NCBI GenBank assembly: GCA_037444305.1
Contig: JBBIMP010000018.1
Location: forward strand, 1 to 64,000
Direction: 5' to 3'
Source of the DNA: Acidobacteriota bacterium
GTDB taxonomy: Bacteria > Acidobacteriota > UBA6911
Length of the DNA stretch: 64,000 nt
A program made the translations under genes and the position numbers. The notes under the pieces were generated by a model, which was given only the letters and a program-made list of their open reading frames with translations, was not told the DNA's origin and searched no databases. How positions within the stretch are numbered: the stretch's first letter is position 1; each line of letters starts with the position of its first letter. This document shows positions 1,915 through 26,434 of the stretch, piece after piece.

Positions 1915-4440
1915 ATGACTTTCGGGGCCTTCATTCGCGACCGTCGAGCAGCGCTCGGGATATCTCTCCGGGTCGCTGCCCAGAAGCTCGGGGTCGACGC
2001 AGCTCATCTGTCCCGTGTCGAAGCCGGTAAGGTACCCGTCTCTGAACAACTGATCCATCGCCTGGCGGGGGTTCTCGAATGCGAGGCAGACGAGCTGCTG
2101 CTCCTAGCCGGACGCCTTCCAGAATCCATCCGTGCCATGGTGGTGCAGCAGCCGTACCGCGCGACGGCTGCGCTGAGAACAATGGCCGAGATGTGCGTGG
2201 CTGAACCAGGCGTGCCCTACGGAGAGCCGCTCTTCGCCGAGCGAGGAGTGCGCGTCATCGAAGACGGCTTTCCCTTCGAGGAGATCAGCGAGATCGCTGA
2301 GGTCGAGAGCTGGCGCAAGGAGATTTACAGGCCCATCTACCACGTCCACAAGTGGTGGGCGCAGCGGTTGGGTTCCGTGTTCCGAGCGGCAATTCTCGGC
2401 GCGGCAGCCCCCAAGGGTTCATCGGTCTTGGACCTCTTCTACGAGCCGGTTCGTCTACCGGGCGTCGTGGTTTTCGACCCGTTCATGGGGAGCGGGACCA
2501 CAGTCGGCGAGGCGCGGAAGCTCGGTTGCACTGTTATCGGGCGCGACATTAACCCAGTGGCGTACCGTGCGGTTCGCGTCGCACTCGGCCCTGTGGACAG
2601 GGGAAGGGTGCACGAGCATTTCCGGAAGCTCGAATCCGGTGTCGGCAAAGAGATCAAGAAGCTGTACAGTTCGGTTGACAGTGACAGAGAGCTATGCGAC
2701 GTCCTCTACTTCTTCTGGGTTAAGGTCGTTCCGTGTCCTAAGTGCCAGGCGAAGGTCGACCTCTTCTCGAGCTACGTTTTCGCGACGCACGCGTACAAAA
2801 AGCAGAACCCGGAGGCCAAAATCATCTGTCCAGAGTGCGGCGATGTTTTCTCTGGGCGACACGACGACACCCAGGTCGCATGCCGATGTGGCGCTCGCTT
2901 CAATCCGCAAGAGGGGCCGGCCAAGCGAACCACAGCAATTTGCCGCCTGTGCGGGCACGAATTCCCGATTGCGAAGACTGCGAAAAGCGCCGGGAGGCCT
3001 CCGGATCACCGGCCCTACGCGAAGTTAGTGCTTCGGAAGGACGGAAGCAAGGAATACCTTGGGATCACGGACGGCGACCTGTCTGCGTTCATGGCCGCAA
3101 GGAACCGCCTGAGAGACTTCGATCCACCGCTTCCTAGTGTACCCATCGGCGACGGCCACAACACGCGCCAGATCCTGAACTACGGGTATCGGCACTGGCA
3201 CGAGTTGTTCAATGAGCGCCAGCTCCTGGCCCTGACGATGCTAGCAGGCGCGATTCGGGACATCCCGGAGAACTCGGCTCGGGATGCGCTCGCCGTACTC
3301 TTCTCGGGCATACTTGAGTTCAACAACATGTTCGCATCGTACAAGGGAGAAGGCACCGGCGCGGTGCGGCATATGTTCTCACACCACATCCTCAAGCCAG
3401 AGCGGACGCCCATCGAGGCGAACATCTGGGGGACGCCGCGGAGTTCGGGTGCCTTCTCGACGCTGTACGAATCCCGGTTGCTTCGCGCGCTGGATTACCG
3501 CGACGCCCCCTTCGAACTCGCGGTTGAGTACAGAGGCCCACGCAAGACAGGAAGGAAGGTAGTGGGTGTCAGCCCGCCGATCGGTGGGCCGATAATAGAG
3601 CGGTACCCGAAAGGCGGTCTTAAGCCCGGCGCTACATACCTCTCTTGCGGGGACTCGTCTGCCACGGACCTCCCCGACAAGAGCGTTGACCTCGTGATAA
3701 CGGACCCGCCTTTTTTTGACAACGTCCACTACTCTGAGCTCGCCGATTTCTTCTTCGTCTGGCAACAGCTTTACTTCGGTGACGGTTCATTCAGTGGCGC
3801 CTGTACCACCCGCCGGGACGCCGAAGTTCAGGACGTCGAAGCCGGTGCGTTCGCAGACAAGCTCGGCAAGGTCTTTGCGGAATGCCACCGTGTGCTGCGA
3901 GACGAAGGCGTCCTCGTCTTCAGCTATCACCACTCGCGCGAGGATGGGTGGGTTGCGGTCGCGCAGGCCGTTTTGGGTGCCGGCTTCAACATAGTTCAGA
4001 GCCAGCCCGTCAAGGCCGAGATGTCGGTCGCCGCTCCGAAAAGTCAGGCGAAGGAGTCTATCGACCTCGACGTACTGATCGTCTGCCGCAAACGAAAATC
4101 CGACCCGCGGCCGCGGCGTGCTGATGAGGGAGTTTTGCAACGAGCTGTCGCGAGCGCCGAGGAAAAGGTTAGACGGTTCAACAGCGTGGGCCGACATCTC
4201 TCTCGAAACGATGTGCGCGTCATTTTGCTAAGTCAGGTCCTGGTGGAACTGAGCGTGGGGAGGACGGCGAGCGAGGTGGGGGTTTCGCTCAAGGCCCTAC
4301 TGCCGAAGACCCGCAGCATCATCGAGAGGTCATGGAAGGACCAGAACGTGCGGGAACCATCGGGTCCCGTTGCGCCGCAGCCAGGGGCGGTGCAGCGTGA
4401 ATTGTGGGAAACACTGCCTACACGCGGAACGGGAGCCTAA
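1915..4440 (+). CDS. XRE-HTH::DUF1156 (COG1743) N6-adenine DNA methyltransferase with a Zn-ribbon
   Basis: 841 aa. N-terminus: GISLRVAAQKLGVDAAHLSRVEAG (XRE-type HTH). DUF1156 N-terminal signature: IEDGFPFEEISEIAEVESWRKEIYRPIYHVHKWWAQR. Motif I: VVFDPFMGSGTTVGEA. Cys clusters CPKCQ...CPECG / CRLCGHEF form the Zn-ribbon. Motif IV: DLVITDPPFFDNVHYSELADFF. Confidence 0.85.
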   Translation: MTFGAFIRDRRAALGISLRVAAQKLGVDAAHLSRVEAGKVPVSEQLIHRLAGVLECEADELLLLAGRLPESIRAMVVQQPYRATAALRTMAEMCVAEPGVPYGEPLFAERGVRVIEDGFPFEEISEIAEVESWRKEIYRPIYHVHKWWAQRLGSVFRAAILGAAAPKGSSVLDLFYEPVRLPGVVVFDPFMGSGTTVGEARKLGCTVIGRDINPVAYRAVRVALGPVDRGRVHEHFRKLESGVGKEIKKLYSSVDSDRELCDVLYFFWVKVVPCPKCQAKVDLFSSYVFATHAYKKQNPEAKIICPECGDVFSGRHDDTQVACRCGARFNPQEGPAKRTTAICRLCGHEFPIAKTAKSAGRPPDHRPYAKLVLRKDGSKEYLGITDGDLSAFMAARNRLRDFDPPLPSVPIGDGHNTRQILNYGYRHWHELFNERQLLALTMLAGAIRDIPENSARDALAVLFSGILEFNNMFASYKGEGTGAVRHMFSHHILKPERTPIEANIWGTPRSSGAFSTLYESRLLRALDYRDAPFELAVEYRGPRKTGRKVVGVSPPIGGPIIERYPKGGLKPGATYLSCGDSSATDLPDKSVDLVITDPPFFDNVHYSELADFFFVWQQLYFGDGSFSGACTTRRDAEVQDVEAGAFADKLGKVFAECHRVLRDEGVLVFSYHHSREDGWVAVAQAVLGAGFNIVQSQPVKAEMSVAAPKSQAKESIDLDVLIVCRKRKSDPRPRRADEGVLQRAVASAEEKVRRFNSVGRHLSRNDVRVILLSQVLVELSVGRTASEVGVSLKALLPKTRSIIERSWKDQNVREPSGPVAPQPGAVQRELWETLPTRGTGA

Positions 4441-5590: not shown

Positions 5591-6682
5591 TCACATGCCG
5601 GTATCCAGCGGACTCCGAACCTCTCGGCCGCCACGATTCAGCACATGTGTGCAGATCATCGTCGTGCTCACGTCGCTGTGCCCTAGAAGCTCCTGAATCG
5701 TCCGGATGTCGTACCCTGCCTCCAGCAAATGCGTCGCAAAAGAATGACGCAGCGAATGACAGCTTGCCGGCTTCGCAATTCGCGCCTGGAGGGCTGCCCT
5801 GCGGACCGCTTTCTGCAATACCGACTCGTGAAGATGATGCCTGCGCTTCCTCCCCGACGAGGAATCCCAATAATGCCGGGTCGCCGGAAATACCCACTGC
5901 CAGCTCCATTCCCACGGAGCCTTGGGATACTTTCGCTCGATTGCCTGAGGCAACTCGACGCTCCCCGCCCCGCGTCGAAGATCCTCCCCATGCCTTTGGC
6001 GCACTCTTTCGATGTGCGCGGCCAGCGGTTCCGAAACTTTGCCCGGGAGAAGCGTCACCCGATCCTTGTTCCCCTTGCCGTCACGAACCGTAATTTCACT
6101 CCGGGCAAAATCCACATCCTTGATGCGCAGCCGACAGCATTCGAGCAGTCGCAAGCCGGCACCATAGAGCAGGGAGGCCATGATCCATTCCACCCCTCGC
6201 AGGTTGCCCAATAGGGCTGTTACTTCCGAGCGCGAAAGCACTACAGGCAGATGAACAGGCCGCTTCGCCCTCACGATGCCGGCGACCCACTCGAGGTCCG
6301 CCTGCAGCACCTCCCGGTAAAGAAATACCAGCGCGCATAACGCCTGGTTCTGCGTGGACGCGCTGACCCTGCCCTTGACCGCAAGATGGGTCAGAAACTG
6401 CGAGATCTCTGCCTCGCCCATCTCAGCCGGGTGCCGCTTGCCGTGAAAAAGAATGAATCGGCGAATCCAGCCGACGTATGACTTGGCCGTTCTGCGGCTG
6501 TAGCTGCGCCGCAAGATCTCGTCGCGGACACGGTCCAGCAGTTTCGGTTTTTGCGGGCAGAGAGAGACATTCTCACACACGAATGCGGCGGCCCGAGCAC
6601 AGCAGAATAGAAAATCGGCGGCAACATCTGATGGCTTCGCATCGGCGGTCACCAGAGGTTCAACGATCGATTCTTGGAGCAT
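5591..6682 (-). CDS. intI: Integron integrase IntI (tyrosine recombinase)
   Basis: Contains [39 protein letters not shown] (R-H-R-Y catalytic region). Also contains the IntI-specific additional domain [50 protein letters not shown], which aligns with IntI1 ALERKYPRAGHSWPWFWVF...[22 protein letters not shown]. The [12 protein letters not shown] box is also present. Confidence 0.9.
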
Positions 6683-7101
6683 TTCACCTCATAAGTTGCC
6701 CGAACGCCAGAGATATTTCAGCAGCGCGCCGGCAAATCCAATAACCGGGTCGTATCCCCCGCGAAAAACAGCAACGGGCTTTTCCTGCTTGAAACAAGAT
6801 GGCGCCGGTTGCGGCGTAAATCGCCGGCAATAGTCGTTGGCGGCAGGCGAAATCAAGGACTTCCCGGCGCTGGCGGCGCATGCGGCGACAAGGATTAGGA
6901 GAGAAGCGATGCCCCAGCGCTGGGCTGTTTCCCTTCGCGGGGACAGCGCGATCAGAAAGGCTCGCGGACGCATGCCTTGGCGCTGAACGAACCCGTGCTC
7001 CCGTTCAGTGTCTTGGGATCGAGATCCACCGTGTGCGTTTTGTAGGCGCTGCCGATTCAACCGGTGGCACGGGCGCCGCATGCGCGATCCAATTGTCCCA
7101 C

Positions 7102-7146
7102 TTGACGAGCTCTGTGACTCCTAGTAGCATGAGCGTGTGAGTCACA
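7102..7146 (+). promoter_or_regulatory. Promoter with a dyad operator upstream of, and overlapping, the vapB start
   Basis: TTGACG (7102-7107), a 17-nt spacer, then TAGCAT (7125-7130). The 8-bp inverted repeat TGTGACTC (7113-7120) / GAGTCACA (7139-7146) brackets the -10 and the GTG start, typical of RHH antitoxin autoregulation. Confidence 0.5.
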
Positions 7147-7364
7147 GACTGCAGGTCCTTATTCCCGAAGAATTGGATGCCCGTGTGCGCAAAGCGTCGC
7201 AGCGTTGCCGTATTTCCAAGGGGGAGTGGGTGCGACGGGCCATCGAACGCACCCTGGCCGAAGACGGGGCAACAGCCGAACCCCTCTCTCAACTGGCCTC
7301 ATTGGAGGCGCCCACGGCCGACATTGACCAGATGCTGGAGGAAATCGAAACGGGGCGCACGTGA
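7137..7364 (+). CDS. vapB: Ribbon-helix-helix (CopG/VapB-type) antitoxin
   Basis: 75 aa with a GTG start: ..HRLQVLIPEELDARVRKASQRCRISKGEWVRRAIERTL. This is an RHH beta-strand plus two helices. Its stop overlaps the vapC start (7361). Confidence 0.72.
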   Translation: MSHRLQVLIPEELDARVRKASQRCRISKGEWVRRAIERTLAEDGATAEPLSQLASLEAPTADIDQMLEEIETGRT

Positions 7365-7765
7365 GGGTTTTCATCGACTCCAACATTCCGATGTATGTCG
7401 CCGGCCGCGAACATCCTCACCGAGAACCGGCGCGCCGCTTATTGGAGAAGGTCCGCGCCGCCGAGCTGGAAGCATGCACCAGCACGGAAGTTCTGCAGGA
7501 AATCCTTTACCGCTACACTGCCTTGCAACGGCTGGACCTGGCACGACGGGTGTATGAGCTCTTCGTGCTGATTTGTCCGGTGATCTATCCCGTAACCCTG
7601 GCCGATACCGACCGCGCGAAGCAACTGGTATGCGGCGGAGGCAGCATCGGGGTTCGCGATGCGATTCACGCCGCCGTCATGCTGAACAACGACGTCCACA
7701 ACGTTGCGACGTTCGATGCAGCCTTCGACCTGATCCCGGGAGTGCGCCGCCTGCCTCTGGATTGA
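7361..7765 (+). CDS. vapC: PIN-domain toxin VapC
   Basis: 134 aa beginning MRVFIDSNIPMY (PIN N-terminal acidic residue), with ..DAIHAAVMLNNDVHNVATFDAAFD (C-terminal conserved Asp). Confidence 0.82.
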   Translation: MRVFIDSNIPMYVAGREHPHREPARRLLEKVRAAELEACTSTEVLQEILYRYTALQRLDLARRVYELFVLICPVIYPVTLADTDRAKQLVCGGGSIGVRDAIHAAVMLNNDVHNVATFDAAFDLIPGVRRLPLD

Positions 7766-7864
7766 AGGGCAAAGATCTTCCCCACCTGCTGAGGCAATGC
7801 ATGATAGATCCGGATTCAAGGGACTATCCGAGGAGCGGAGTTTCGATCGCAGGCTTTTGGCGGA

Positions 7865-8917
7865 TCAGCGGCCTGCCGCCGCGAGCTGGCCGCAGGCGGC
7901 GGCGATGTCGTGGCCGCCGCTGTAACGGCGGTGCGTGGCCAGCCCCGCCCGGTGCAGAACTTCGCGGAATGCGGATTCCGTCTCGCGAGCCGTCCGCCGG
8001 AATTCGTCCCGCCCGCCGGCGTCGGCGTTGTAGGGGACGATGCTGATCCGCGGCCGCACGCCCGTGGCGCGCACGAAATCCCGGCCGAGCCGCGCCAGCG
8101 CCGCAGCGTGCTCCGGGCTGTCGTTGACCCCTTCGAGAAGCGTCACGGCCCACATCGGCGCGATGCGCGTTTTGCGCGAATGATCGGCAACGGCGGCCAT
8201 TACCTGTTCGAGCGGGTGGGCGCGGTCGATCGGCATCAATCGGCGGCGGACCTCAGGCAGTGCGCTGCCGATCGAAATGCCAAGACGAACCTTGGGCGCC
8301 TCTGCGGCCAGCTGGCGAATGCCCTCGGGCAATCCCACGGTGCAGACTGTGATGGCTTTGGCGTTTACTGCCATCGTGCTCGGATTGCAGGCGACGGCGA
8401 TCGCCTGGAGCACTGCATCGAGATTGGCCAGCGGTTCCCCCATCCCCTGGAAGACAATCCCATGAATGCGTTCGCCGCGGCGGGGGTCCAGTCCGCCTCG
8501 GACAATCCGCAACTGTTCGATGATTTCCCACGCTTCCAGGTTCCGGTGCAGCCCAAGCCTGCCGGTGGCGCAGAAGGAACAACCGAGCCCGCAGCCGGCC
8601 TGCGAACTGACGCACACGGAGAAGCGGCCGGGACGGTCGAGCGGAATGCGGACGGCCTCCACGGTGCCGCCCCCCGGAACTTCCAGGATATATTTGATGA
8701 ACGGATCGACCCCACTCCGTTGATTGGCGCACACCGTCAGCTTCGGGAGCGATCCCGCAGCGGCGGCCGCGTCAATGACCGATTGCTTTACGCGCCGGAC
8801 AAACTCCAGGCCGCCTCCGCGGTGGATGCCGCTCGCTATTCTCCGGGCGTCGGTCAGGGAAATGCCGGGAATGATTTGAACCAGTTCATCCGGAGTCAGT
8901 GCCTGCAGAGCAATCAT
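7865..8917 (-). CDS. rlmN: Radical-SAM 23S rRNA/tRNA m2A methyltransferase RlmN
   Basis: 350 aa with the radical-SAM motif CSFCATG, plus GMGEPLAN and ..ISIVPYN.. regions, giving RlmN/Cfr family topology. Confidence 0.85.
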   Translation of the reverse strand: MIALQALTPDELVQIIPGISLTDARRIASGIHRGGGLEFVRRVKQSVIDAAAAAGSLPKLTVCANQRSGVDPFIKYILEVPGGGTVEAVRIPLDRPGRFSVCVSSQAGCGLGCSFCATGRLGLHRNLEAWEIIEQLRIVRGGLDPRRGERIHGIVFQGMGEPLANLDAVLQAIAVACNPSTMAVNAKAITVCTVGLPEGIRQLAAEAPKVRLGISIGSALPEVRRRLMPIDRAHPLEQVMAAVADHSRKTRIAPMWAVTLLEGVNDSPEHAAALARLGRDFVRATGVRPRISIVPYNADAGGRDEFRRTARETESAFREVLHRAGLATHRRYSGGHDIAAACGQLAAAGR

Positions 8918-9174: not shown

Positions 9175-10353
9175 CTAAAAGGCGAACAGGTAGTTGAGTT
9201 TGACGGCGAGGGAACGGTTCCGGATGTTGAACACGCCGCCCCACTCGTCGGTCTCATTGTACACGATGAAGAAATCGCTCCCCGGCCGGACGATCCAGTT
9301 GAAGCGGATATTGCTGGAGAACAGCCGGCTGTCGGTGTTGTACTGAAAGAGCGTCAGCAGAGCCATGTCGTTGCCGAAGGCAACCTGGAAGCGCGTGGAC
9401 ACCAGCTGAGTCGTGAACTTGCCCGCGGGGAGATCCACCCAGTTCACTTCGTAGCGGCCCGAGAGATCGAAATACCGGTTGATCCGGTAGCTGGTGTCGG
9501 CGGAGATTCGATCGCGCTCCCCGTTCCAGAACCCGCCCGTGTCGTAGGCCAGATTGAGGCGCACGTGCCTCCGGCGGAATGTGTCCAGACGTGCGGAGAA
9601 CGTGTTGAAGCGGTAGACTCCCGGCTGGATGGCCACTCCTGTCCTCAGCGCGAAAGGCTCCTCGATCTGCTCGAGCTGATTGACGACGGCTAAGGTCAGG
9701 GCGTCTCCGCTCTCGAACGTCGTGCCGACCGTGAGTTCACGGGTGCGGGTCTCGAGTATGTTCCCCTGGTCGGTCACGTACTGCAGCGAAGCGGAAAAAT
9801 CGAACTTGCGCACCCACTCCAGGCCCGGCCGCGGGCTGTAGCGCAGCTCGCCGGCGTTCTGCCGGCTGCCCGGCCGCCGCACGAAGCCGATCCCCGGCTG
9901 AAAGTTCTCCCCGGCGTCCATATACCGGTAATCGGCCCCCCAGCGGTCGGTGTCGTAGGCGAAGCGCAGATAGGCGGAGTGCGCGCCCTCTTCGATGTCA
10001 GGCGCGTCCACCTTTGCCAGGAAGCCCTCGAGCGCCCAGGCCTGCTTGAAGAGAAAGCCGGCATCCGCTCCGAAGACTCGATTGAAGCCGCCGCCTCCTT
10101 CGCGGTTGGTGAACAGCGCACCGATGCTGGAACGGCTCTCGATGTCGCGGCGGACGCGCAGGACGGTGAAGTTGTCGGCTGCAAAGCCGTGCTCCTCGCC
10201 CGTCTGAATGTTCATCGCGCCGATGCTGTAGGGCCCCTGGCGCCCGGAAAGGCGGGCGCCGGCGCGTATGGGAATGATTCGCCCGTTGGGCGAAAGGCCG
10301 ATGCGCCGGGTGAAGACGAGGTCGTTCTGGCGGGGCACGCCGAACTGGAACAT
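9175..10353 (-). pseudogene. DUF5916-family outer-membrane protein, C-terminal fragment (beta-barrel ending ..NYLFAF)
   Basis: 392-aa ORF ending with the outer-membrane C-terminal Phe signature. Separated from the upstream CBM9-like fragment by a frame break at 10353-10420. Confidence 0.55.
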
Positions 10354-10419
10354 CCGCTCCCCTTCCAGGAAGAACTGCCGCTTCTCGGGGAAAAAGAGTG
10401 AAAAGCGCGTGAAGTTGAT

Positions 10420-11007
10420 CTACTGGACGTCGACTTCCTCCTGGGCAAAGTCCGTGTTGACGGTGAAATCGGCGGTGAGTCCCGAGGTGACTCCCCATTT
10501 CACGTCCAGGCCGGCGTCGGCGCGGCCCTCGGTGGGCGTCCCCTGCCCGCCATAGCCCGCGCCGGCGAGCGCATAAGGCCGGGCTTCGATGCTGCGGCCC
10601 GGTTCGATCCCGCGCAGGCCGTGCAGGTGCCCCAGTTCCGCCGGCCGGTACCAGCTGGAATCATTGGGGACGAAAGGCCAGTAGACCCCTTCGTTCTTGC
10701 GCGGGATGTTGCGCTTGAAGCCGATCCCGAAAATCACATCGCCGCCGTCGGCCGGCGATTGAAAACGGAGGGACTTGAACGGGATGGCGACCTCCACCTC
10801 CCACCCGGCCGGATTCCAGCTGCCCTGGGCGTGCCAGACCGCGTCCCAGTTGTGGTTGCGGGTTTCAGTGGATTCGCCCGTTTGAAACAGGTCCTCTATC
10901 AGGCCGTTGGCGTTGGTGACAAACTGGATCGCGGTGCGATGGTCGTTGTAGGCATCGAGCAGGATCGAGACCAGATCGTCCGCGCCGGCGTTCTCGTCGC
11001 GGAACAT
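10420..11007 (-). pseudogene. CBM9-like N-terminal fragment of the same DUF5916 protein
   Basis: 195 aa: ..NHNWDAVWHAQGSWNPAGWEVEVAIPFKSLRF.. (CBM9/DOMON-like). No signal peptide is present, so the gene looks truncated and frameshifted. Confidence 0.5.
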
Positions 11008-11222: not shown

Positions 11223-14200
11223 TCAGGGTGCGGCGGAGTGGCGCGCATGGCAGAGGGTGTTGACCAGCCGAAGCTCCTCGACCGTCCGGCATGGCGTTGC
11301 CGGCAGGCGAGGACTTGCCACCAGCAGGGTGAGACATCGCGCGCGGGAAATGGCCACGTTCAACCGGTTCCTGCTGAAGAGGAATTCAATATCCCGGGGC
11401 AGATCCTCTGCGCTCGAGGTCGTCATCGAGACGATAACCACCTCCGCCTCCTGCCCCTGGAATTTGTCGACGGTGCCGACACGGGCGCCGGCCGGCAGAA
11501 CCGACCGCAGGCGGTTGACCTGCACATTGTAGGGGGCCACGACGAGAATGTTCTCGGGCCGCATGGGGTGCACGGCGCCGTCCGTGTCGGTGAAGGCCTG
11601 CAGCAGCAGGTTGGAGTAGACCTCGCGCACTACCTGAGCCTCCTCCTCGGATTTCTGCGAGCAGCCGGCGTGATCCACCCCGATGAAGCGGATTCCTGTC
11701 GGGCGCAACTCGGGGTGCGCGCCCCGCTTGAGGAGGAGTCTGCGATTCTGGTTCTTTGCCTCCGGGTGGAGCCGCCCTTCATACACGGCCTCGGATATGA
11801 AACGGCAGACATCGGCGTGCATGCGCCACGTGGTGGGCAGAAAAATCCCCCGCTCGGGCGGGATCGTCGCCGCGTCGCGGAGCAGGTACTCGAGAACAGA
11901 CATCCCCGACTCGCCGGGATGCACGCCCTGGATCGGCTGGCCGAGCTGCATCTGGTCTCCAACCAGCACGATGTTTTTGGCGCTGGTTCCCATAGCCACG
12001 AGGTTTGCCAGCGACACCTGGCCCGCCTCGTCCACGAACAGGCAGTCGAGCCTGCCGTCCATGTCCGGGTGCGCAAACAGCCAAGCCGAGCCGGCGAACA
12101 GGTCGGCGGAGAAATCGAATCTTTCGGTGCGGGTTTCGTTGGCAATCTGCCGCCCTGCGAAGAACGATTCGCTGTTCATTTCGGTCGCCTTCTTGATGCC
12201 GCGAAACGTGAGCCCGGTTTCGTCGGCCCGCCTCTCCACCGCGTGCAGCAGATTGTGGATCGCCTTGTGGGAGTTCGAGGCGACGCCGACCTTCTTTCCC
12301 TGCCGAATCAGCTCCACGATGATGCGGGATGAGACATATGTTTTGCCGGCGCCGGGCGGCCCCTGGATGAGCAGGCAGCTGTTCCTGAGATTGGCGACGG
12401 CGCGGGTGGACTCGATGACAAGGTCCTCCTTCCCGCTGATGATGGGGAGACCGTGCTTGAGGCCCTTGATTGCAGGCAGTTGCCGGAGCAGCAGCGATCG
12501 CGCGGCCGGATACTTCCCATCGCCCGCCGCCATGGAATCGGCGAAGCGGCCCAGGGCATCGTGCAGCACCCTCGTATCTATGGGCCCGGAGGGTATTAGG
12601 GAAAGTTCCGCCGGCAGCGATCCGGCCGAAGCGCCCCGTTTCAACTTCAGGGTGCCTCCTTCCAGGTCCAGCGCCACGATTGTGCCGGCAGGTTCCAACG
12701 TTGCTGCAACCAGACAGCGGTTGCCCGGTCCGAGTTTTGAGTCCTGCGGCGGAAAGCGATACCCGGCGACGATCGAGCGCTTCTCCGTCCGCTGTGGAAT
12801 GCCCGGATCCAGGCCGAGTGCGCCGATGCACTCGTAGTCCTCCACCAGGTCCTCGGGCGTGCTCTCCTGGCGGTCGAACATGGCCCACCATGCCGGCTTG
12901 GCCTCCCGGCGGTGAAAACCGAGCAGGTGCACGACGGTTTCGCGCGCAACCTTCTCCTCCGGAGGGCTGCCCTTCATGAGTTTCTTCCGGCGCGCGGCGA
13001 TTTCCTCCTCCGCCTGGGTTCGGGCAGCGGCTTTTTCCTCGTCCTGGTCCTCCGGCGCCTCGAACCAGGGGGTGCCGTCCGGCCGCAGATCGAGCAGCCA
13101 CTCGCGAAGCAGGTGCGTGGAACGGCAGTCTGCCCGGTTGTAATCCCGGATCTGCTCCAGCAGGCTGTCGTCGTGCGTCAATCGCCACTGCTCGTAAACC
13201 ACGATGCTGTCGCCGGCGCTTGTCACCTCGCCCTCTCGCTTTTTCATGTAGAAAACCTCGAGGTCCTTCAGCGAATAACCCCGCGCGGAAGCCTGGAGGC
13301 CTTCGCGTACGACCTTGTAGAGGTCGACCAGCTTGCGGGCCCGCAGCAGGTGGTCGACTTCCGCCTCGCGCGTGCCGTAGCGCGAGGCCAGCCGTTTGAG
13401 CGCGTTCTCCTCGTAGTGGTTGTAGTGATAGATGTGCGCGCCCGGATGCGCCTCGAGATGCTCCATGAAAAAGTCGACTGCCTGCCGGAACGCCGCCATC
13501 TCCTCGTCGTGGTTGTGGGCCCAGAATTCGCGGAAGACCGGCTTCCGGCTCGCAAACCGGTAAACGCCGAACAGGTATTCCAGGCCCTCGCCGAAGAAAG
13601 GATCCCCTTCGATGTCGAAGAACAGGTCGGCGGCATCGGGTCTGGGCAGCCTTTCGAAGCCTCTGCCCTCCTTGGGCGGGAGGAGCTGCCAGGAGTCCTG
13701 GCCGGTGTCGCGCCTGTTCGTCTGCAGGCGCGCCTGGGTGCGCAGTCGCGTCAGGCTCTCCTGGCCGATCCCGTCAATGCGCCGCGAATCGGGCGTGGAG
13801 GCCAGTGTCCGGGCTGTGGCGATGCCGGCCTCTATCAGCCTGCGGATCTGCGACTGGCGGATGTTGGCGACGAGCGTCAGGTGGTCGTCGTCCTCCCACC
13901 GGCGGCAACAAAGATCGCGCCACCGGCAGAGGTCGCAGTAGCGGCAGCGGCGCGGGTATGAATATTCTGGGGGCGATGCGGCGAATTCCTCGAAGCGGCG
14001 CTGAGCCTCCAGGTGGTAGTGGCGGAAGTCGGCGAAAAGGAAAGCCGCCTCGCTGCCGTCGCCCAGCACCAGGTGCATCGAGCGGGGTGTGAGCCCCTGC
14101 ATCGCCTCCAGCATGTCGGAGTAGCAGCAGAGCTGGATTACGCGGGCGGCCGAAGGCGCTCGGGCCAGCTTTGTGTCGACCGCTTCGTAGCTGAATCTCC

Positions 14201-14558
14201 CAAGCTTGGAAGGGGTGTCGACACGCCGGAGGAAGTCGGCGTAGCCGAACCACGGGTCCTTTTGCAGCGCGGCCTGGTAGATGACGTCGGCGCCTGCGGC
14301 CATTGCCTTGCGGGTCTGGGCGGTCCTTTCTGCCAGGGAGCCATCCGTTGGGATTTCGACCGCCTCCAGGTCTTCGGACAGCAGCTTTGCGAGGTAGGCT
14401 TTTTCGTGTTCCAGCCCTTTCCTGCGGAGGAGTTCGATGCCGGCGTCCTCCCCGGCCTGAGGAAGAGGTTGCTCGCGATGGCGAAGGTCCAGCCATGCGC
14501 AGTGCTCACACTCGAGGAAGCTCAGCAGGGCCGAGGGCGCGTGCATGTGCGGCATCAT
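11223..14558 (-). CDS. Cas4/RecB-like PD-(D/E)xK nuclease (Fe-S) + RNase H-like domain + SF1 (Upf1/Dna2-like) helicase fusion; TM0106 family, Nhi-like
   Basis: 1111 aa. N-terminal Cys cluster CEHCAW...CRYCDLCRWRDLCC (Cas4-type 4Fe-4S). Middle region ..LFFDIEGDPF..EYLFG (RNase H-like, TM0106/YprB). Helicase motifs: LIQGPPGAGKTY (Walker A), LFVDEAGQ (Walker B), VLVGDQMQL, and DKFQGQEAEVVIVS..NRLNVAISRAR (motifs V and VI). Confidence 0.85.
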   Translation of the reverse strand: MMPHMHAPSALLSFLECEHCAWLDLRHREQPLPQAGEDAGIELLRRKGLEHEKAYLAKLLSEDLEAVEIPTDGSLAERTAQTRKAMAAGADVIYQAALQKDPWFGYADFLRRVDTPSKLGRFSYEAVDTKLARAPSAARVIQLCCYSDMLEAMQGLTPRSMHLVLGDGSEAAFLFADFRHYHLEAQRRFEEFAASPPEYSYPRRCRYCDLCRWRDLCCRRWEDDDHLTLVANIRQSQIRRLIEAGIATARTLASTPDSRRIDGIGQESLTRLRTQARLQTNRRDTGQDSWQLLPPKEGRGFERLPRPDAADLFFDIEGDPFFGEGLEYLFGVYRFASRKPVFREFWAHNHDEEMAAFRQAVDFFMEHLEAHPGAHIYHYNHYEENALKRLASRYGTREAEVDHLLRARKLVDLYKVVREGLQASARGYSLKDLEVFYMKKREGEVTSAGDSIVVYEQWRLTHDDSLLEQIRDYNRADCRSTHLLREWLLDLRPDGTPWFEAPEDQDEEKAAARTQAEEEIAARRKKLMKGSPPEEKVARETVVHLLGFHRREAKPAWWAMFDRQESTPEDLVEDYECIGALGLDPGIPQRTEKRSIVAGYRFPPQDSKLGPGNRCLVAATLEPAGTIVALDLEGGTLKLKRGASAGSLPAELSLIPSGPIDTRVLHDALGRFADSMAAGDGKYPAARSLLLRQLPAIKGLKHGLPIISGKEDLVIESTRAVANLRNSCLLIQGPPGAGKTYVSSRIIVELIRQGKKVGVASNSHKAIHNLLHAVERRADETGLTFRGIKKATEMNSESFFAGRQIANETRTERFDFSADLFAGSAWLFAHPDMDGRLDCLFVDEAGQVSLANLVAMGTSAKNIVLVGDQMQLGQPIQGVHPGESGMSVLEYLLRDAATIPPERGIFLPTTWRMHADVCRFISEAVYEGRLHPEAKNQNRRLLLKRGAHPELRPTGIRFIGVDHAGCSQKSEEEAQVVREVYSNLLLQAFTDTDGAVHPMRPENILVVAPYNVQVNRLRSVLPAGARVGTVDKFQGQEAEVVIVSMTTSSAEDLPRDIEFLFSRNRLNVAISRARCLTLLVASPRLPATPCRTVEELRLVNTLCHARHSAAP

Positions 14559-14753
14559 AACAGAACTGAATGCCCGGCAGGCAGGGCCCTCGGGACACGG
14601 AAAAACACAGGCAGGGCTTTTGCCGGCGGCAAAAGCCCTGCTCGCGGATTCCGGCTGGTTTTTCCCTGACGGGGACTATCCATCTATAAAGCCCGGGGAC
14701 CTTGAATCGGGCGGGTGCGGCCTTTATCATCCACGGTTGCTGGAGGAAAGTTT

Positions 14754-24656: not shown

Positions 24657-24893
24657 TTACAGATCGTAGTGTTTGTACAAGGTATCGATTTGGCCCGCTA
24701 CAACAACCGCCACGGCCCCCTTTTGGATTCGGTTGAGAGAACGGATAACCTCTCGGACCCTTTTCCCGGACAGCCTGTACTTTGTCGCGCCTCCCGGAGC
24801 ATTTTCGGGCAGGCCAAGAGCTAGAACAAGTTCCACATCCAGCTTATGGAACCCCCTCTGCCTCATGCGCATCTCAGCGTGTTTTGAAAGCAT
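24657..24893 (-). CDS. DUF4258-family protein (toxin-like small protein)
   Basis: 78 aa starting MLSKHAEMRMRQRGF..., with the H-A-x2-R-M-x-E/Q-RG motif characteristic of DUF4258. Confidence 0.55.
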   Translation of the reverse strand: MLSKHAEMRMRQRGFHKLDVELVLALGLPENAPGGATKYRLSGKRVREVIRSLNRIQKGAVAVVVAGQIDTLYKHYDL

Positions 24894-24928
24894 TTTTTCA
24901 TACCTCCAATGGATGAAGGCAAAGGCGA

Positions 24929-25663
24929 TTAATCACACTCCTGCGATTCTTTATTCTCAAAGAACTTGCGTTTCTCAATGGCGTCAACCAATCTCTTGAC
25001 CCAATAAATCCCAGGAACTTTGAGATTCTTAAGAGTGTCCTGCAGATCTCCAGAAGACTGATAAACATTGTCGCATGCGCGCTCGAAATCTCTGGCCTTT
25101 GACAAGACATTTTCTTTGTCTGCCTCTGTAATAAGCTCTTTTTTGAGCAGATCGTCGAGGTGCTTTTTCACTACATCGTATGCAATAAAGCCTGTGAGGT
25201 TTTCGACGACATCGAGAGCACTTGGATTGCTGCTCAGCACTATTTCCAGTGCATTACATGGTGTGAATTCCAGAGCGTTGATGTAGCATTCTAGGAAGTC
25301 CCGCTTAGATCCAACAAGGTACTTGATGAGATTAATGTGACGGACAACATCGACGGGGTAGAATCCAACGGAGCCCCTTTCCGTCTTCCGAATATTGCTG
25401 GTTCCCGATATCAGTTTCATCCCCACATATTTTTTGAAGGTGGGCGCTTTGACCACCATCCCCTTCTTGGCAAGAAGTTCCTGGATTTCTTTAAAAGTCA
25501 AACCCCGCTCTTGGTGCCTTTTTTCGAGCTCATCTAACTCATGCGATGTGAAGTAGCAGGAATGGGTAGCCAAGGATCTACGGTATTGTGGATCATTGAC
25601 GATGGTTCTTGATAGTACATCTCGAAGTTCGGCGTGTTGTTTTGCAAGATCATCTAGTCTCAT
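24929..25663 (-). CDS. Hypothetical 244-aa protein in an AT-rich islet
   Basis: A long ORF in a region of about 42% GC against a 65% GC background. Lys/Glu-rich. It is the upstream partner, 35 bp away, of the DUF4258 gene. No family recognised. Confidence 0.5.
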   Translation of the reverse strand: MRLDDLAKQHAELRDVLSRTIVNDPQYRRSLATHSCYFTSHELDELEKRHQERGLTFKEIQELLAKKGMVVKAPTFKKYVGMKLISGTSNIRKTERGSVGFYPVDVVRHINLIKYLVGSKRDFLECYINALEFTPCNALEIVLSSNPSALDVVENLTGFIAYDVVKKHLDDLLKKELITEADKENVLSKARDFERACDNVYQSSGDLQDTLKNLKVPGIYWVKRLVDAIEKRKFFENKESQECD

Positions 25664-26434
25664 ATTAGTTATCCCTCCAGGGTTATAATAGCTCTCATAG
25701 CTATCGAATAATATACTGCAGTATAATTCATGTAACGTAGCCTGTCAACAATTTTTTTAGAAAGGGCTATCAAGATGCCTTGCTGCGAGGTCGTGGAATT
25801 CGGGCTGTGATTTCCGAAGACGGCTTATAATTTGAAAATAATATATTTAGAGGATTGCAGCTACAGCATGGCTGGCTAGCGCTAACTGCTCGTAATGGAG
25901 TGGAACGACCTAGCCGGCGAGACCTTCAAATTCAATTTTCCCCATGTGTCGATTCTCGCCCTATTTCCCCAATCCCATTCTCAGAAGCTATCCCCCCTTC
26001 AGCTCGACATCGTCTTAGCCGTTTTTGCAACAATGGCAATCTTTTGGTCCATTTTTGTCTGGTGTCGATTTCGCTTTATCCAATGCCGAAGTCGGATAAA
26101 TGCTCTTCATCATCCCGTCTCTCTGTTAGCTTTTGTGTTTCTGGATTGCGGGCAAAAGTCCGACTGGCTGGTGTCGCGACATTCACCGTTTTCGGCTCGG
26201 CCGGCAGGCCCTGAAATTCCTTGTCCACTTCCTCCAGGACCTCCACAAACCGGTTCATGTGGGCGACAACGGCGACCGGGGCAGAAACGACCTGCAACTG
26301 CGTTTTTTTCAATGTCGGCACAAACCTGCACCGGCTGCTGAAGCATACTCCGCCCTGGTCGCCTAATCTCGGTCCCACACGACCGGCAAACACAGGGAGG
26401 GACCACTGGCACTGAGGACCTGACACCATATTCT

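What the first reader, a model, noticed from the sequence alone, without database searches (positions are those of the whole stretch)
11223..14558. Stand-alone 1111-aa Cas4-like Fe-S nuclease / RNase H-like / SF1 helicase: a candidate single-gene Nhi-like immunity protein
The protein combines a Cas4/RecB-type PD-(D/E)xK nuclease with a four-Cys cluster, a TM0106/YprB RNase H-like module, and a Upf1/Dna2-like SF1 helicase with all motifs intact. Nuclease-helicase fusions of this general layout have been shown to act as anti-phage immunity proteins (Nhi, established knowledge). This one is not linked to CRISPR, and it sits beside a disrupted gene, consistent with acquisition. The three-domain order (Cas4-like, RNase H-like, helicase) differs from the characterised two-domain Nhi.
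Basis: partly seen in the sequence, partly recalled or inferred. Interest (0 to 1): 0.7.

Follow-up and report, generated by a model that had tools for sequence, protein, structure and literature searches.

The report
Dna2-like dual-nuclease helicase, candidate defence gene
This intact 1111-residue gene fuses an iron-sulfur Cas4-type nuclease, a proofreading-type 3'-5' exonuclease and a Dna2/Upf1-type helicase; it belongs to a large, already annotated but untested family whose relatives sit on plasmids and inside anti-phage defence islands, so it is a reasonable but unproven immunity candidate and is not a relative of Nhi.

Summary
Window 11223-14558 (-) encodes an intact 1111-aa protein with three parts. 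The first is a Cas4-like PD-(D/E)xK nuclease with invariant cysteines. The second is a DEDD 3'-5' exonuclease of the family-B polymerase type. The third is an SF1B Upf1/Dna2-like helicase behind a beta-barrel and stalk. All catalytic motifs are invariant in 30 homologues.

It is an ordinary member of the uncharacterised "TM0106 family RecB-like putative nuclease" (TIGR03491/COG2251), whose three-part layout was described in 2014. It is not an Nhi homologue. Nhi is a 606-aa protein with an HsdR-like nuclease and a DUF2075 helicase. The closest structural analogue is Dna2, and the closest biochemical analogue is Geobacillus Bad.

The defence reading is supported only by context in relatives:
- sporadic spread across phyla;
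- at least 60 full-length plasmid copies;
- almost no conserved neighbours;
- a WYL regulator in 29 of 80 loci, and McrC in 13;
- many full-length known defence proteins next door.

In this window the gene has native codon usage, no regulator and no defence partner. The neighbouring gene is broken by a point nonsense codon, which says little about acquisition. No experiment on the family was found. Verdict: plausible new variant of single-protein nuclease-helicase immunity, unproven.

The parts
11223..14558 (-). Complete gene: 1111-aa TM0106-family nuclease / exonuclease / SF1B helicase (stop codon at 11223-11225)
   Evidence: ORF list and translation. TIGR03491 scores 299.8 bits against a cut-off of 97.45. 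Full-length homologues cover 98-100% of it. AF2 model has pLDDT 87.7 and pTM 0.81.
13884..14546 (-). Residues ~5-225: Cas4/Dna2-type PD-(D/E)xK nuclease with an Fe-S ('iron-staple') cysteine set. Cysteines C17, C205, C208, C211, C217; active site D108, E125, D128, K130, Q142, Y146.
13644..13883 (-). Residues ~226-305: conserved helical linker between the two nuclease domains (H226, L227, V230, A231, Q275, A276 invariant). Function not assigned.
   Evidence: Secondary structure of the models and invariant columns. A helix-hairpin-helix-like DNA-binding role is only a guess.
13074..13643 (-). Residues ~306-495: DEDDy 3'-5' exonuclease domain (Pfam RNase_H_2, PF13482). Catalytic residues D315, E317, D412, Y473, D477.
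12399..13061 (-). Residues ~500-720: helical stalk (507-572) and beta-barrel (578-656), then helices leading into the motor. This corresponds to the 1B/1C accessory domains of Upf1/Dna2-type helicases.
   Evidence: AF2 secondary structure. Foldseek alignments to Ighmbp2 and Upf1 span ~640 columns, which is more than the ~390-residue motor core and so should reach into this region. Dna2 aligns over the whole chain. W557, W558 and R563 are invariant.
11226..12398 (-). Residues ~721-1111: SF1B helicase core (RecA-like domains 1A and 2A). Motifs: Walker A GPPGAGKT 733-740, motif II DEAGQ 843-847, motif III GDQ 867-869, motif V QGQE 1034-1037, motif VI R1065/R1072.
   Evidence: Pfam AAA_11, AAA_12 and AAA_30. 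PDB sequence hits are Ighmbp2 8e-21, Upf1 4e-17 and Dna2 1e-11. PADLOC MkoA hits at 6e-45, on this part only. Motifs are invariant.
14611..14641 (-). Perfect 14-bp-stem hairpin followed by a T-run. It lies about 43-53 nt upstream of the start codon, in the 156-bp divergent intergenic region shared with the Sel1-repeat gene. It could be a terminator/insulator, an attenuator or an operator. Whether it belongs to the gene is uncertain.
   Evidence: Terminator scan and the sequence itself. No conservation test was possible, because no close relative shares this context.

Best explanation
The gene encodes a self-contained DNA-destroying motor that most likely serves as innate immunity against phages or plasmids.

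Shown by the results here:
- One polypeptide carries, in order, an Fe-S Cas4/Dna2-type nuclease, a polymerase-B-type DEDD 3'-5' exonuclease, a stalk and beta-barrel, and an SF1B motor. All active sites are conserved.
- The family is accessory. It is patchy across phyla, carried on plasmids, has variable flanks, and sits in defence islands, often with a WYL-domain regulator.

Inferred by analogy with Dna2 and Geobacillus Bad, both characterised biochemically:
- The motor loads on a 5' single-stranded tail or an ss/ds junction.
- It moves 5'->3' and threads that strand through the Fe-S nuclease placed ahead of it, which cuts it.

Further inference: the DEDD exonuclease degrades 3' ends, either the displaced strand or the nicked products, so both polarities are destroyed by one protein. 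This would be a single-chain counterpart of RecBCD or AddAB.

Speculative:
- Self is spared because the enzyme needs free ends, flaps or replication/recombination intermediates, which are abundant in invading DNA.
- In about a third of relatives, expression is gated by a WYL repressor or activator that responds to an infection or DNA-damage signal.
- In this window no such regulator is present, so the gene would be constitutive or controlled through the upstream hairpin.
For: Architecture and intact catalysis. Structure: Dna2 is the best whole-chain match (Foldseek E 1e-27), followed by Ighmbp2, Upf1 and Sen1. The N-terminal module matches Cas4 and the Dna2 nuclease, and the second domain matches polymerase-B exonuclease and MrfB.

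Biochemical precedent: Bad has an Fe-S cluster, ssDNA endonuclease activity, 5'-3' translocase and helicase activity, and recognises junctions. Its authors propose a novel restriction role.

Accessory and mobile character:
- At least 583 species genomes carry it, in many phyla, at 44-53% identity to the query.
- Nearest relatives cross phylum boundaries, for example Holophagaceae to a betaproteobacterium at 69% and Opitutus to Dechloromonas at 64%.
- There are two paralogues in Magnetococcus marinus MC-1.
- 74 plasmid records match, 60 over at least 80% of the query, and 28 of the 74 are predicted conjugative. No phage carries a full-length copy.
- 94% of 3081 locus pairs share no neighbour family, and 908 of 1146 neighbour genes are unique to one locus.

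Defence context:
- A WYL+WCX regulator is present in 29 of 80 loci, and within 300 bp in 15. It is absent from the top-25 list for genes at least 6 kb away.
- McrC is present in 13 loci, with McrB confirmed beside it where checked.
- Among the 290 nearest neighbours are strong (very low E-value) matches to type I restriction enzymes, Hhe (1e-237), dGTPase (1e-139), ZorD (1e-279), JetC, PDC-S06/S36/S37, PD-T4-1 and RmuC.
- Annotated plasmid contexts include a ubiquitin-like E1/E2 cluster, VapBC with an integrase and HNH, and dynamin, WYL and restriction genes.

Family size: the N-terminal module alone finds 1731 clusters (50% identity) at E<=1e-30, most of the best ones 1100-1200 aa long.
Against: - No experiment on any family member was found. 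PADLOC 2023 has no model covering the N-terminal module.
- The defence-island signal is qualitative. I used a home-made gene caller. PADLOC output was a per-family summary and not per locus. There was no genome-wide background. The 80 loci are the best-scoring subset and are dominated by Pseudomonadota.
- WYL regulators also control DNA-damage regulons (PafBC, DriD), so that linkage fits a repair role too.
- In this window there is no WYL, McrBC, RmuC or HEPN-like neighbour. None of the 10 neighbouring ORFs scanned against PADLOC gave a hit except the methylase 7 kb away. Codon usage is native.
- Upf1-like motors often act on RNA, so the substrate is not settled.
- Some odd taxa, such as Paceibacterota, may be MAG contamination and not horizontal transfer.
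Confidence: 0.55

Rival explanations
1. It is a DNA-repair or recombination enzyme. It would be a single-chain end-resection or flap-processing machine, analogous to AddAB, AdnAB, RecBCD or Dna2. In many hosts it would be induced by DNA damage through a WYL regulator of the PafBC/DriD type, and it would be carried as an accessory repair function.
For: Dna2 is the best whole-chain structural match. The second nuclease domain resembles MrfB, a repair exonuclease. RmuC, a recombination-associated protein, is an immediate neighbour in several loci. WYL regulators include the DNA-damage activators PafBC and DriD. In this window the gene has native codon usage and sits next to ordinary metabolic genes.
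Against: Repair genes are normally core and syntenic. This family is patchy, carried on plasmids and almost without conserved context. Its neighbours are mostly restriction, Zorya, Hhe, dGTPase, McrBC and toxin-antitoxin genes and not repair genes. RmuC domains are themselves used in defence, as in the Shield system (title listed).
Confidence: 0.2
2. It works for mobile elements and not for the host. It would be a plasmid- or ICE-borne factor used in conflicts between elements, for example to exclude rival plasmids or process incoming DNA, or in element maintenance. Chromosomal copies such as this one would be remnants of integrated elements.
For: 74 plasmid records match, 28 of them predicted conjugative. 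Copies lie next to integrases and VapBC on plasmids and in this window. An integrase/toxin-antitoxin/methylase block lies 2.3-9 kb from the gene.
Against: Most sampled copies are chromosomal. The target's codon usage differs from the island-like block and matches core genes. Mechanistically this overlaps the defence reading, since plasmid-borne defence genes are common, so it is more a question of who benefits than a different mechanism.
Confidence: 0.12
3. It targets RNA or RNA:DNA hybrids. A Upf1/Mokosh-type RNA helicase would deliver phage transcripts or R-loops to the nucleases.
For: The helicase core is closest by sequence to the RNA helicases Ighmbp2 and Upf1 and to the Mokosh MkoA/MkoC models. 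McrBC systems linked to Upf1-like helicases (CoCoNuTs) are predicted to target RNA. DEDD exonucleases include many RNases.
Against: Both nuclease domains are closest to DNA enzymes: Cas4, Dna2, MGME1, polymerase-B proofreading exonuclease and MrfB. Bad and Dna2, which have the same nuclease-ahead-of-motor layout, act on ssDNA.
Confidence: 0.08

Closest known systems
TM0106 family RecB-like putative nuclease (NCBIfam TIGR03491; COG2251; family F.13 of the RNase H-like superfamily survey, Majorek et al. 2014)
   Same: It is a member. TIGR03491 is matched across its whole length, far above the cut-off. The DUF83-like nuclease + PF13482 + tandem AAA layout is exactly what was described. PGAP names the homologues this way.
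   Different: Nothing structural differs. The family has no assigned biological role, so membership explains the fold and not the function.
Eukaryotic Dna2 nuclease-helicase (PDB 5EAN/5EAW/5EAX)
   Same: It shares the Fe-S PD-(D/E)xK nuclease N-terminal to a beta-barrel/stalk and an SF1B Upf1-like motor. Dna2 is the best whole-chain structural hit, and the N-terminal module also hits the Dna2 nuclease.
   Different: This protein has an extra DEDD 3'-5' exonuclease domain and a helical linker inserted between nuclease and stalk. Sequence similarity is detectable only in the helicase (1e-11). [quoted passage not shown]
Bad, the bacterial DNA2-like helicase-nuclease of Geobacillus stearothermophilus (Wilkinson et al. 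2020, PMC7430649)
   Same: It has the same three-part plan: an iron-staple Fe-S nuclease, a central domain and an SF1B helicase. It also has a sporadic distribution. A role in a novel restriction system was proposed from its gene neighbourhood.
   Different: Bad is 1245 aa, and its central domain has no detectable homology according to its authors. Here the central module is a recognisable PF13482 exonuclease. Bad neighbours a type III-like methyltransferase, and no consistent methylase partner was seen here. Direct sequence comparison was not possible because the Bad sequence is not held.
Nhi (SERP2475) nuclease-helicase immunity protein of Staphylococcus epidermidis
   Same: Both are single polypeptides combining a PD-(D/E)xK nuclease with an SF1 helicase. 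Nhi is experimentally anti-phage. Conceptually it is the same kind of system.
   Different: Nhi is 606 aa, with an HsdR-like nuclease for which no Fe-S cluster is reported, a DUF2075/PF09848 helicase with bipolar activity and a glyoxalase-like C-terminus. It has no DEDD exonuclease. Here the helicase family is AAA_11/AAA_12, and PF09848 matches only around the P-loop.
Mokosh (MkoA/MkoB, MkoC)
   Same: Among PADLOC models, the helicase core is closest to MkoA (6e-45) and MkoC (1.5e-25). MkoC is also a one-protein helicase plus nuclease.
   Different: Mokosh uses a PLD-family nuclease (my recollection of the literature; not checked here) and a different N-terminal region. The matches here cover only the helicase part of the protein, best stretch residues 836-1095.
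CoCoNuT type II/III systems (McrBC with the Upf1-like helicase CnuH)
   Same: A Upf1-like SF1 helicase gene is linked to McrB/McrC. This is seen in 13 of 80 related loci and is described for CnuH.
   Different: CnuH has a large helical insertion after Walker A. Searches of the paper for 'Cas4' and 'RecB' found nothing, so no such module is described for it. There is no McrBC in this window.

Membership tests
TM0106 family RecB-like putative nuclease (TIGR03491 / COG2251), long helicase-fused form | Match to the TIGR03491 model above its curated cut-off, across the model | tested here: met
   299.8 bits against a cut-off of 97.45. Residues 9-488 match model positions 4-462 of 462.
TM0106 family RecB-like putative nuclease (TIGR03491 / COG2251), long helicase-fused form | Cas4-like PD-(D/E)xK nuclease, then a PF13482 RNase H-like domain, then tandem AAA (AAA_11/AAA_12) domains | tested here: met
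   Pfam domains. The architecture is as described.
TM0106 family RecB-like putative nuclease (TIGR03491 / COG2251), long helicase-fused form | No association with CRISPR arrays or cas genes | tested here: met
   No spaced direct repeats in the 64 kb. The Cas4 equivalog scores 15 bits against a cut-off of 65. The 17 neighbouring ORFs scanned against Pfam include no cas gene. WYL proteins matching PADLOC's 'CAS-associated' WYL models occur in relatives, but no cas gene appeared in the top-25 neighbour families apart from a model named Cas3c (7 and 9 members), whose matching proteins I did not identify.
Nhi (nuclease-helicase immunity) | Central DUF2075 / PF09848 SF1 helicase domain | tested here: not met
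   PF09848 matches only profile positions 2-89 of 354 (27.5 bits), at the P-loop. AAA_12 scores 99 bits and AAA_11 48 bits.
Nhi (nuclease-helicase immunity) | N-terminal HsdR-like PD-(D/E)xK nuclease in a ~600-aa protein, with no second nuclease | tested here: not met
   The nuclease here is the Cas4/Dna2 Fe-S type. The protein is 1111 aa and has an added DEDD exonuclease.
Nhi (nuclease-helicase immunity) | Match to a defence-library Nhi model | tested here: inconclusive
   No model named Nhi appears among the PADLOC hits at E<=0.1. I could not verify that PADLOC-DB 2.0.0 contains an Nhi model.
Nhi (nuclease-helicase immunity) | Protects against phage when expressed alone; needs both nuclease and helicase residues | not testable with these tools
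   This needs a phage challenge of the wild type and of K739A, D128A/K130A and D315A/E317A mutants.
Dna2 / Bad-type nuclease-helicases | Iron-staple (four-Cys Fe-S) RecB-family nuclease placed N-terminal to an SF1B helicase | tested here: met
   Invariant C17/C208/C211/C217 (plus C205) flank the nuclease motifs. Dna2 is the top whole-chain Foldseek hit.
Dna2 / Bad-type nuclease-helicases | Beta-barrel and helical stalk between nuclease and motor | tested here: met
   The model shows helices 507-572 and a barrel at 578-656. Alignments to Upf1/Ighmbp2 (~640 columns) and to Dna2 (whole chain) are long enough to reach this region.
Dna2 / Bad-type nuclease-helicases | Sequence-level orthology with Dna2 or Bad over the whole protein | tested here: inconclusive
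   Against the PDB, only the helicase part matches Dna2 by sequence (1.2e-11). The Bad sequence (WP_053413574) is not held as text. Bad's central domain is reported to have no detectable homology, unlike the PF13482 domain here.
Dna2 / Bad-type nuclease-helicases | 5'->3' ssDNA translocation with endonucleolytic cleavage ahead of the motor | not testable with these tools
   Inferred from SF1B family membership. This needs biochemistry.
Mokosh | MkoA/MkoC-type helicase together with a PLD-family nuclease, fused or as a neighbour (the PLD requirement is my recollection of the literature) | tested here: not met
   Only the helicase part matches MkoA and MkoC. No PLD domain was found in the protein or in the 10 neighbouring ORFs scanned.
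CRISPR-associated Cas4 | Score above the Cas4 equivalog cut-off and location in a cas adaptation module | tested here: not met
   TIGR00372 scores 15 bits against a cut-off of 65. There is no array or cas gene in the window.
Anti-phage defence gene (generic, by the guilt-by-association criterion) | Homologues preferentially located next to known defence genes, relative to a genome background | tested here: inconclusive
   Many high-confidence defence neighbours and WYL regulators were found, and defence genes persist at 6 kb or more. No genome-wide background was available, and the sample is a biased set of 80 loci.

The most novel reading that the evidence does not exclude
The TM0106-helicase family is a widespread single-gene immunity system that has not been recognised as one. 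It would unite a 5'-flap/ssDNA Fe-S nuclease, a 3'-5' proofreading-type exonuclease and a 5'-3' motor in one chain, making it a 'one-protein RecBCD' aimed at invading DNA. It would often be gated by a BrxR/CapW-like WYL regulator, and in some clades it would be coupled to McrBC. A further step would be that this family and Bad are the prokaryotic relatives from which eukaryotic Dna2 descends, which would tie a core replication enzyme to an immune ancestor.
Probability: 0.4. Interest if true: 0.65.

Novelty: new variant of a known kind. Interest (0 to 1): 0.48.

Why it matters
If the family is confirmed as defence, it would add a large and phylogenetically broad single-protein system to the anti-phage repertoire. 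The N-terminal module alone finds about 1,700 clusters at 50% identity.

The mechanism would be unusual: two nucleases of opposite polarity riding on one SF1B motor. The system would be small enough for structural work and for use as a tool.

It would also give a biological role to the long-orphan TM0106/COG2251 family, and possibly to the biochemically well-studied but functionally orphan Bad enzyme. It would sharpen the question of where eukaryotic Dna2 came from.

For this particular window the consequence is modest. The gene is a typical, intact family member with no special local context.

Tried and rejected
1. Nhi homology. I read the Nhi preprint for its defining domains. The domains do not match, so I rejected membership and kept only the analogy.

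2. UvrD-Cas4 fusions in defence contexts (Hudaiberdiev et al. 2017). That family has an SF1A UvrD helicase N-terminal to a pfam12705 nuclease, so it is not applicable.

3. The Synechococcus elongatus 'Cas4-like nuclease' that restricts RSF1010. No locus tag is given in the text. The PDB now holds Argonaute-associated Cas4 proteins (ACE1), which weakly match the N-terminal domain. That cyanobacterial gene is more likely of the ACE1 type, so I did not use it as evidence.

4. The synteny test for housekeeping status. The nearest relatives of the neighbouring M14 peptidase are only 68-73% identical and share no gene order. The result is inconclusive for this lineage.

5. Best-hit identity as a sign of foreignness. 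The target's best hit is 61% and the core neighbour's is 73%. The gap is too small to interpret.

6. A compositional test for recent acquisition. The result is negative, because the target looks native.

7. Whether the pseudogene's frame continues to the target's 3' end, which would mark an insertion junction. It does not, because stops intervene.

8. CoCoNuT CnuH identity. I rejected it on the published description.

9. Retrieval of the Bad sequence from the paper's supplement. The figures are images only.

10. Literature searches for the family names returned nothing relevant.

11. Rfam and tRNA scans of the window found nothing.

12. PHROGs matches only the helicase part.

Full report
**1. 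The observation**

Window 11223-14558 on the minus strand is an uninterrupted, ATG-started ORF of 1111 codons. Its third-position GC is 0.82 and its codon-adaptation value is 0.70 relative to the window's large core genes. That places it with the neighbouring chromosomal genes and apart from the integrase/methylase/PIN block at 1.9-7.8 kb, which scores 0.51-0.59.

- NCBIfam TIGR03491, 'TM0106 family RecB-like putative nuclease', covers residues 9-488 at 299.8 bits against a cut-off of 97.45.
- Pfam RNase_H_2 (PF13482) covers 312-488 at 3e-32.
- The Upf1-type helicase families AAA_11 and AAA_12 cover 725-1082.

The exact protein is on record in a metagenome-assembled genome, GCA_964538715.1, on a 75-kb contig. 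The window is chromosomal, since nusA lies at 60.6-62.1 kb.

**2. Are the enzymes intact?**

I aligned the protein with 29 homologues of 51-60% identity. The following are invariant or nearly so:
- Five cysteines: C17, C205, C208, C211, C217. C17 plus C208-x2-C211-x5-C217 has the Cas4/AddB/Dna2 'iron-staple' spacing.
- The PD-(D/E)xK set: D108, E125, D128, K130, with Q142 and Y146.
- A DEDDy exonuclease set: D315, E317, D412, Y473, D477.
- Helicase motifs I, II, III, V and VI: GPPGAGKT 733-740, DEAGQ 843-847, GDQ 867-869, QGQE 1034-1037, R1065/R1072.

All three catalytic centres are therefore under purifying selection.

**3. Structure**

An AlphaFold2 model of the whole chain is confident, with pLDDT 87.7 and pTM 0.81. 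The best whole-chain match among solved structures is Dna2, aligning across nuclease and helicase at Foldseek E 1e-27. It is followed by Ighmbp2, Upf1, Sen1/Setx, ZNFX1 and the nidovirus nsp13 helicases. The model shows a helical stalk (507-572) and a beta-barrel (578-656) in front of the motor, as in Upf1 and Dna2.

A separate model of residues 1-500 has pLDDT 93.4. Its first domain matches the Dna2 nuclease and Cas4 (8d3l TMt 0.67; 4r5q). It also weakly matches Argonaute-associated Cas4 proteins.

So 'RNase H-like' should be read specifically as a DEDD 3'-5' exonuclease, as Majorek et al. predicted for this family in 2014.

**4. What family is it?**

It is a typical member of a large, already named family. 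The word-indexed search returned 4964 proteins at E<=1e-10. This count includes other helicases, and the top 120 are nearly all 1096-1157 aa with the same Pfam set. Those that carry a name are called 'TM0106 family RecB-like putative nuclease' or 'predicted RecB family nuclease'.

An exhaustive search with only the N-terminal 500 residues found 1731 clusters (50% identity) at E<=1e-30. Most of the best are 1100-1200 aa long. The three-part layout was published for COG2251 in 2014.

I found no paper that assigns a function. Searches for the family names returned nothing relevant.

**5. Is it Nhi-like?**

Only by analogy. Nhi (SERP2475) is a 606-aa protein. It has an HsdR-like PD-(D/E)xK nuclease, a DUF2075/PF09848 helicase with bipolar activity and a glyoxalase-like C-terminus. 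Here PF09848 matches only the first 89 of its 354 profile positions, around the P-loop. The nuclease is of the Fe-S Cas4/Dna2 type. PADLOC returned no model named Nhi; the helicase half hits the Mokosh MkoA/MkoC models, and Cas4 models hit weakly.

The nearest characterised analogues are two:
- Dna2.
- Geobacillus Bad, a 1245-aa Fe-S nuclease / central domain / SF1B helicase. Bad was shown to be a junction-recognising ssDNA endonuclease and a 5'-3' looping motor. Its authors suggested it might be part of a novel restriction enzyme.

I could not compare sequences with Bad because its sequence is not held. Its authors report that its central domain has no detectable homology, which differs from the recognisable PF13482 domain here.

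**6. Housekeeping or accessory?**

The 80 best come from:
- Alpha-, Beta-, Gamma- and 'Delta'-proteobacteria;
- Bdellovibrionales and Oligoflexales;
- Acidobacteriota, Gemmatimonadota, Chloroflexota and Actinomycetota (Solirubrobacterales);
- Cyanobacteria, Bacteroidota, Ignavibacteria and Verrucomicrobiota;
- one Paceibacterota MAG.

All lie at 44-53% identity to the query. Nearest-neighbour relationships are partly taxonomic: sphingomonads, Burkholderiales and Solirubrobacterales cluster. They also cross phyla, for example Holophagaceae to a betaproteobacterium at 69%, Desulfobulbaceae to Sulfuricella at 69%, and Opitutus to Dechloromonas at 64%. Magnetococcus marinus MC-1 has two copies.

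Seventy-four plasmid records match. Sixty of them cover at least 80% of the query, and 28 of the 74 are predicted conjugative. No phage record has more than a helicase fragment.

I called genes in the 80 loci with a simple codon-bias caller and clustered all neighbours. 94% of 3081 locus pairs share no neighbour family apart from WYL regulators. 908 of 1146 neighbour genes occur in a single locus. This window's locus shares none with any other. This is the opposite of a conserved housekeeping context.

For the window's own lineage the test could not be done. The closest available relatives of the neighbouring M14 peptidase are 68-73% identical and not syntenic.

**7. What lies next to the relatives?**

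The one recurrent partner is an HTH-WYL-WCX regulator (Pfam WYL 1e-19, WCX 5e-12). An HMM built from the cluster finds it in 29 of 80 loci. In 15 of these it lies within 300 bp, on either side and in either orientation. WYL disappears from the top-25 list when genes at least 6 kb away are scanned, so the linkage is local.

McrC occurs in 13 loci. McrB was confirmed beside it in two loci and appears to lie beside it in the others. In at least six loci the pair follows the gene directly on the same strand. RmuC occurs in 7 loci, and a small Rx4H (HEPN-motif) protein in 7.

PADLOC scans of the 290 nearest neighbours at E<=1e-8 returned very strong (very low E-value) matches to:
- type I restriction enzymes (E=0);
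- Hhe (1e-237);
- dGTPase (1e-139);
- ZorD (1e-279, three loci);
- JetC, PDC-S06/S36/S37, PD-T4-1 and RmuC-type proteins.

Annotated plasmid examples show the gene beside a ubiquitin-like E1/E2/multiubiquitin cluster, beside VapBC, an integrase, SNF2 and HNH, and beside dynamin-family, WYL and restriction genes.

Even the distal control set contained MkoA, Pbe/Dnd, Zorya, Druantia and MADS components. The relatives therefore tend to sit within extended defence islands.

Caveats:
- The gene caller is crude.
- PADLOC output was a family-count summary and not a per-locus table.
- There is no genome-wide background.
- The 80 loci are the best-scoring subset.

**8. The local context in this window**

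Downstream on the same strand lies a DUF5916-type outer-membrane-like gene. A single TAG at 10420-10422 breaks a 610-codon frame, and the frame does not continue upstream to the target. Beyond it lie:
- an RlmN/Cfr-family radical-SAM methyltransferase paralogue;
- a PIN toxin pair and a tyrosine integrase;
- an 841-aa HTH-methyltransferase with DUF1156/HmaB/PglX-like matches;
- a HicB antitoxin.

Upstream, and divergent, is a Sel1-repeat gene, followed by ApbE, a cytochrome-b-like gene, unknowns and an M14 peptidase.

No WYL, McrC, RmuC or HEPN-like homologue occurs anywhere in the 64 kb. There is no CRISPR-like array. A perfect 14-bp-stem hairpin with a T-run lies 43-53 nt upstream of the start codon, and its role is unknown.

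As evidence for acquisition it is weak, because it is a point nonsense mutation, it could even be an assembly error in a MAG, and the target's composition is native.

**9. Mechanism**

Shown: the order of domains, their folds, the conservation of their active sites, and the accessory, island-associated distribution.

Inferred from Dna2 and Bad: the SF1B motor binds a 5' single-stranded tail or junction and moves 5'->3'. The Fe-S nuclease, sitting ahead of the motor, cleaves the strand threaded through it.

Inferred from the fold alone: the DEDD domain removes 3' ends, so both strands of an unwound duplex can be degraded by one polypeptide.

Speculative:
- Discrimination of foreign DNA through free ends, flaps or replication intermediates.
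- Transcriptional gating by WYL regulators in about a third of hosts.
- Cooperation with McrBC in some clades.

I put 0.55 on an immunity role against phages or plasmids. I put 0.2 on a repair or recombination role, 0.12 on a function mainly serving mobile elements, and 0.08 on RNA or hybrid targeting.

**10. Novelty and verdict**

The gene itself is an ordinary member of a known, named family, and its architecture has been in the literature since 2014. What is not in the literature I could search, nor in PADLOC 2023, is a biological role.

The comparative evidence assembled here makes it a credible candidate for a new variant of single-protein nuclease-helicase immunity. It is distinct from Nhi, Hna, Hhe and Mokosh in having an Fe-S Cas4/Dna2-type nuclease plus a proofreading-type exonuclease on a Upf1/Dna2-type motor.

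It remains a prediction, and many such predictions exist. This window adds no special context.

Noticed in passing
Related loci L011, L016, L017, L052, L064, L073 (just downstream of the match), and 7 further loci: McrC, with McrB where checked, follows the TM0106-helicase gene directly on the same strand with gaps of 0-650 bp. This occurs in a betaproteobacterial clade and a sphingomonad clade, 13 of 80 loci in all. It may be a composite cassette, and it echoes the CoCoNuT pairing of McrBC with a Upf1-like helicase. It is absent from this window.
   Followed up: partly
window 14611-14641 (-): A perfect 14-bp-stem hairpin (GCAGGGCTTTTGCC-GCC-GGCAAAAGCCCTGC) followed by a T-run. It lies 43-53 nt upstream of the target's ATG, in the divergent intergenic region with the Sel1 gene. 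It could be a terminator, an attenuator or an operator.
   Followed up: no
window 9175-11007 (-): A DUF5916-type, outer-membrane-like gene (it ends ...LNYLFAF) read as one 610-codon frame with a single in-frame TAG at 10420-10422. The N-terminus also looks short. It is either a pseudogene or a MAG assembly error.
   Followed up: partly
window 1915-4440 (+): An 841-aa protein with an N-terminal HTH_3/HTH_31 domain and a split N6/N4 DNA methylase. PADLOC hits include DUF1156_MTase, HmaB and PglX. It looks like an orphan defence-type methyltransferase, next to a HicB antitoxin and 1.2 kb from a tyrosine integrase.
   Followed up: partly
window 5591-8917: An island-like block with lower GC3 and codon adaptation than the rest of the window. 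It holds a tyrosine integrase (5591-6682, -), a small ORF plus a PIN-domain toxin (7177-7765, +), and a radical-SAM RlmN/Cfr-family rRNA methyltransferase paralogue (7865-8917, -). The paralogue scores below the equivalog cut-offs: 261 bits against 441 for RlmN-type, and 198 against 550 for Cfr.
   Followed up: partly
window 24800-26000: A low-GC patch (0.43-0.47, against about 0.63 for the window). It has few long ORFs, and the 244-aa ORF at 24929-25663 (-) has no Pfam match.
   Followed up: no
Protein hits P0025 and P0031: Magnetococcus marinus MC-1 encodes two full-length paralogues of the family on its chromosome, at 57% and 56% identity to the query.
   Followed up: no
L047 7622-8266 (-), L057 7573-8217 (-), and 5 further loci: A conserved protein of about 215-245 aa with an Rx4H (HEPN-type) motif, 'LRNQLMHGG'. 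It recurs within about 2-9 kb of the gene in Pseudomonas and sphingomonad loci. It has no Pfam or NCBIfam match.
   Followed up: partly
Locus L084 (Phenylobacterium plasmid pA) 5603-8960: A multiubiquitin / E2-UBC / ThiF-E1 / DUF6527 cluster, which is a ubiquitin-like conjugation system of the defence type. It lies immediately upstream of the plasmid's TM0106-helicase gene, on the same strand.
   Followed up: no
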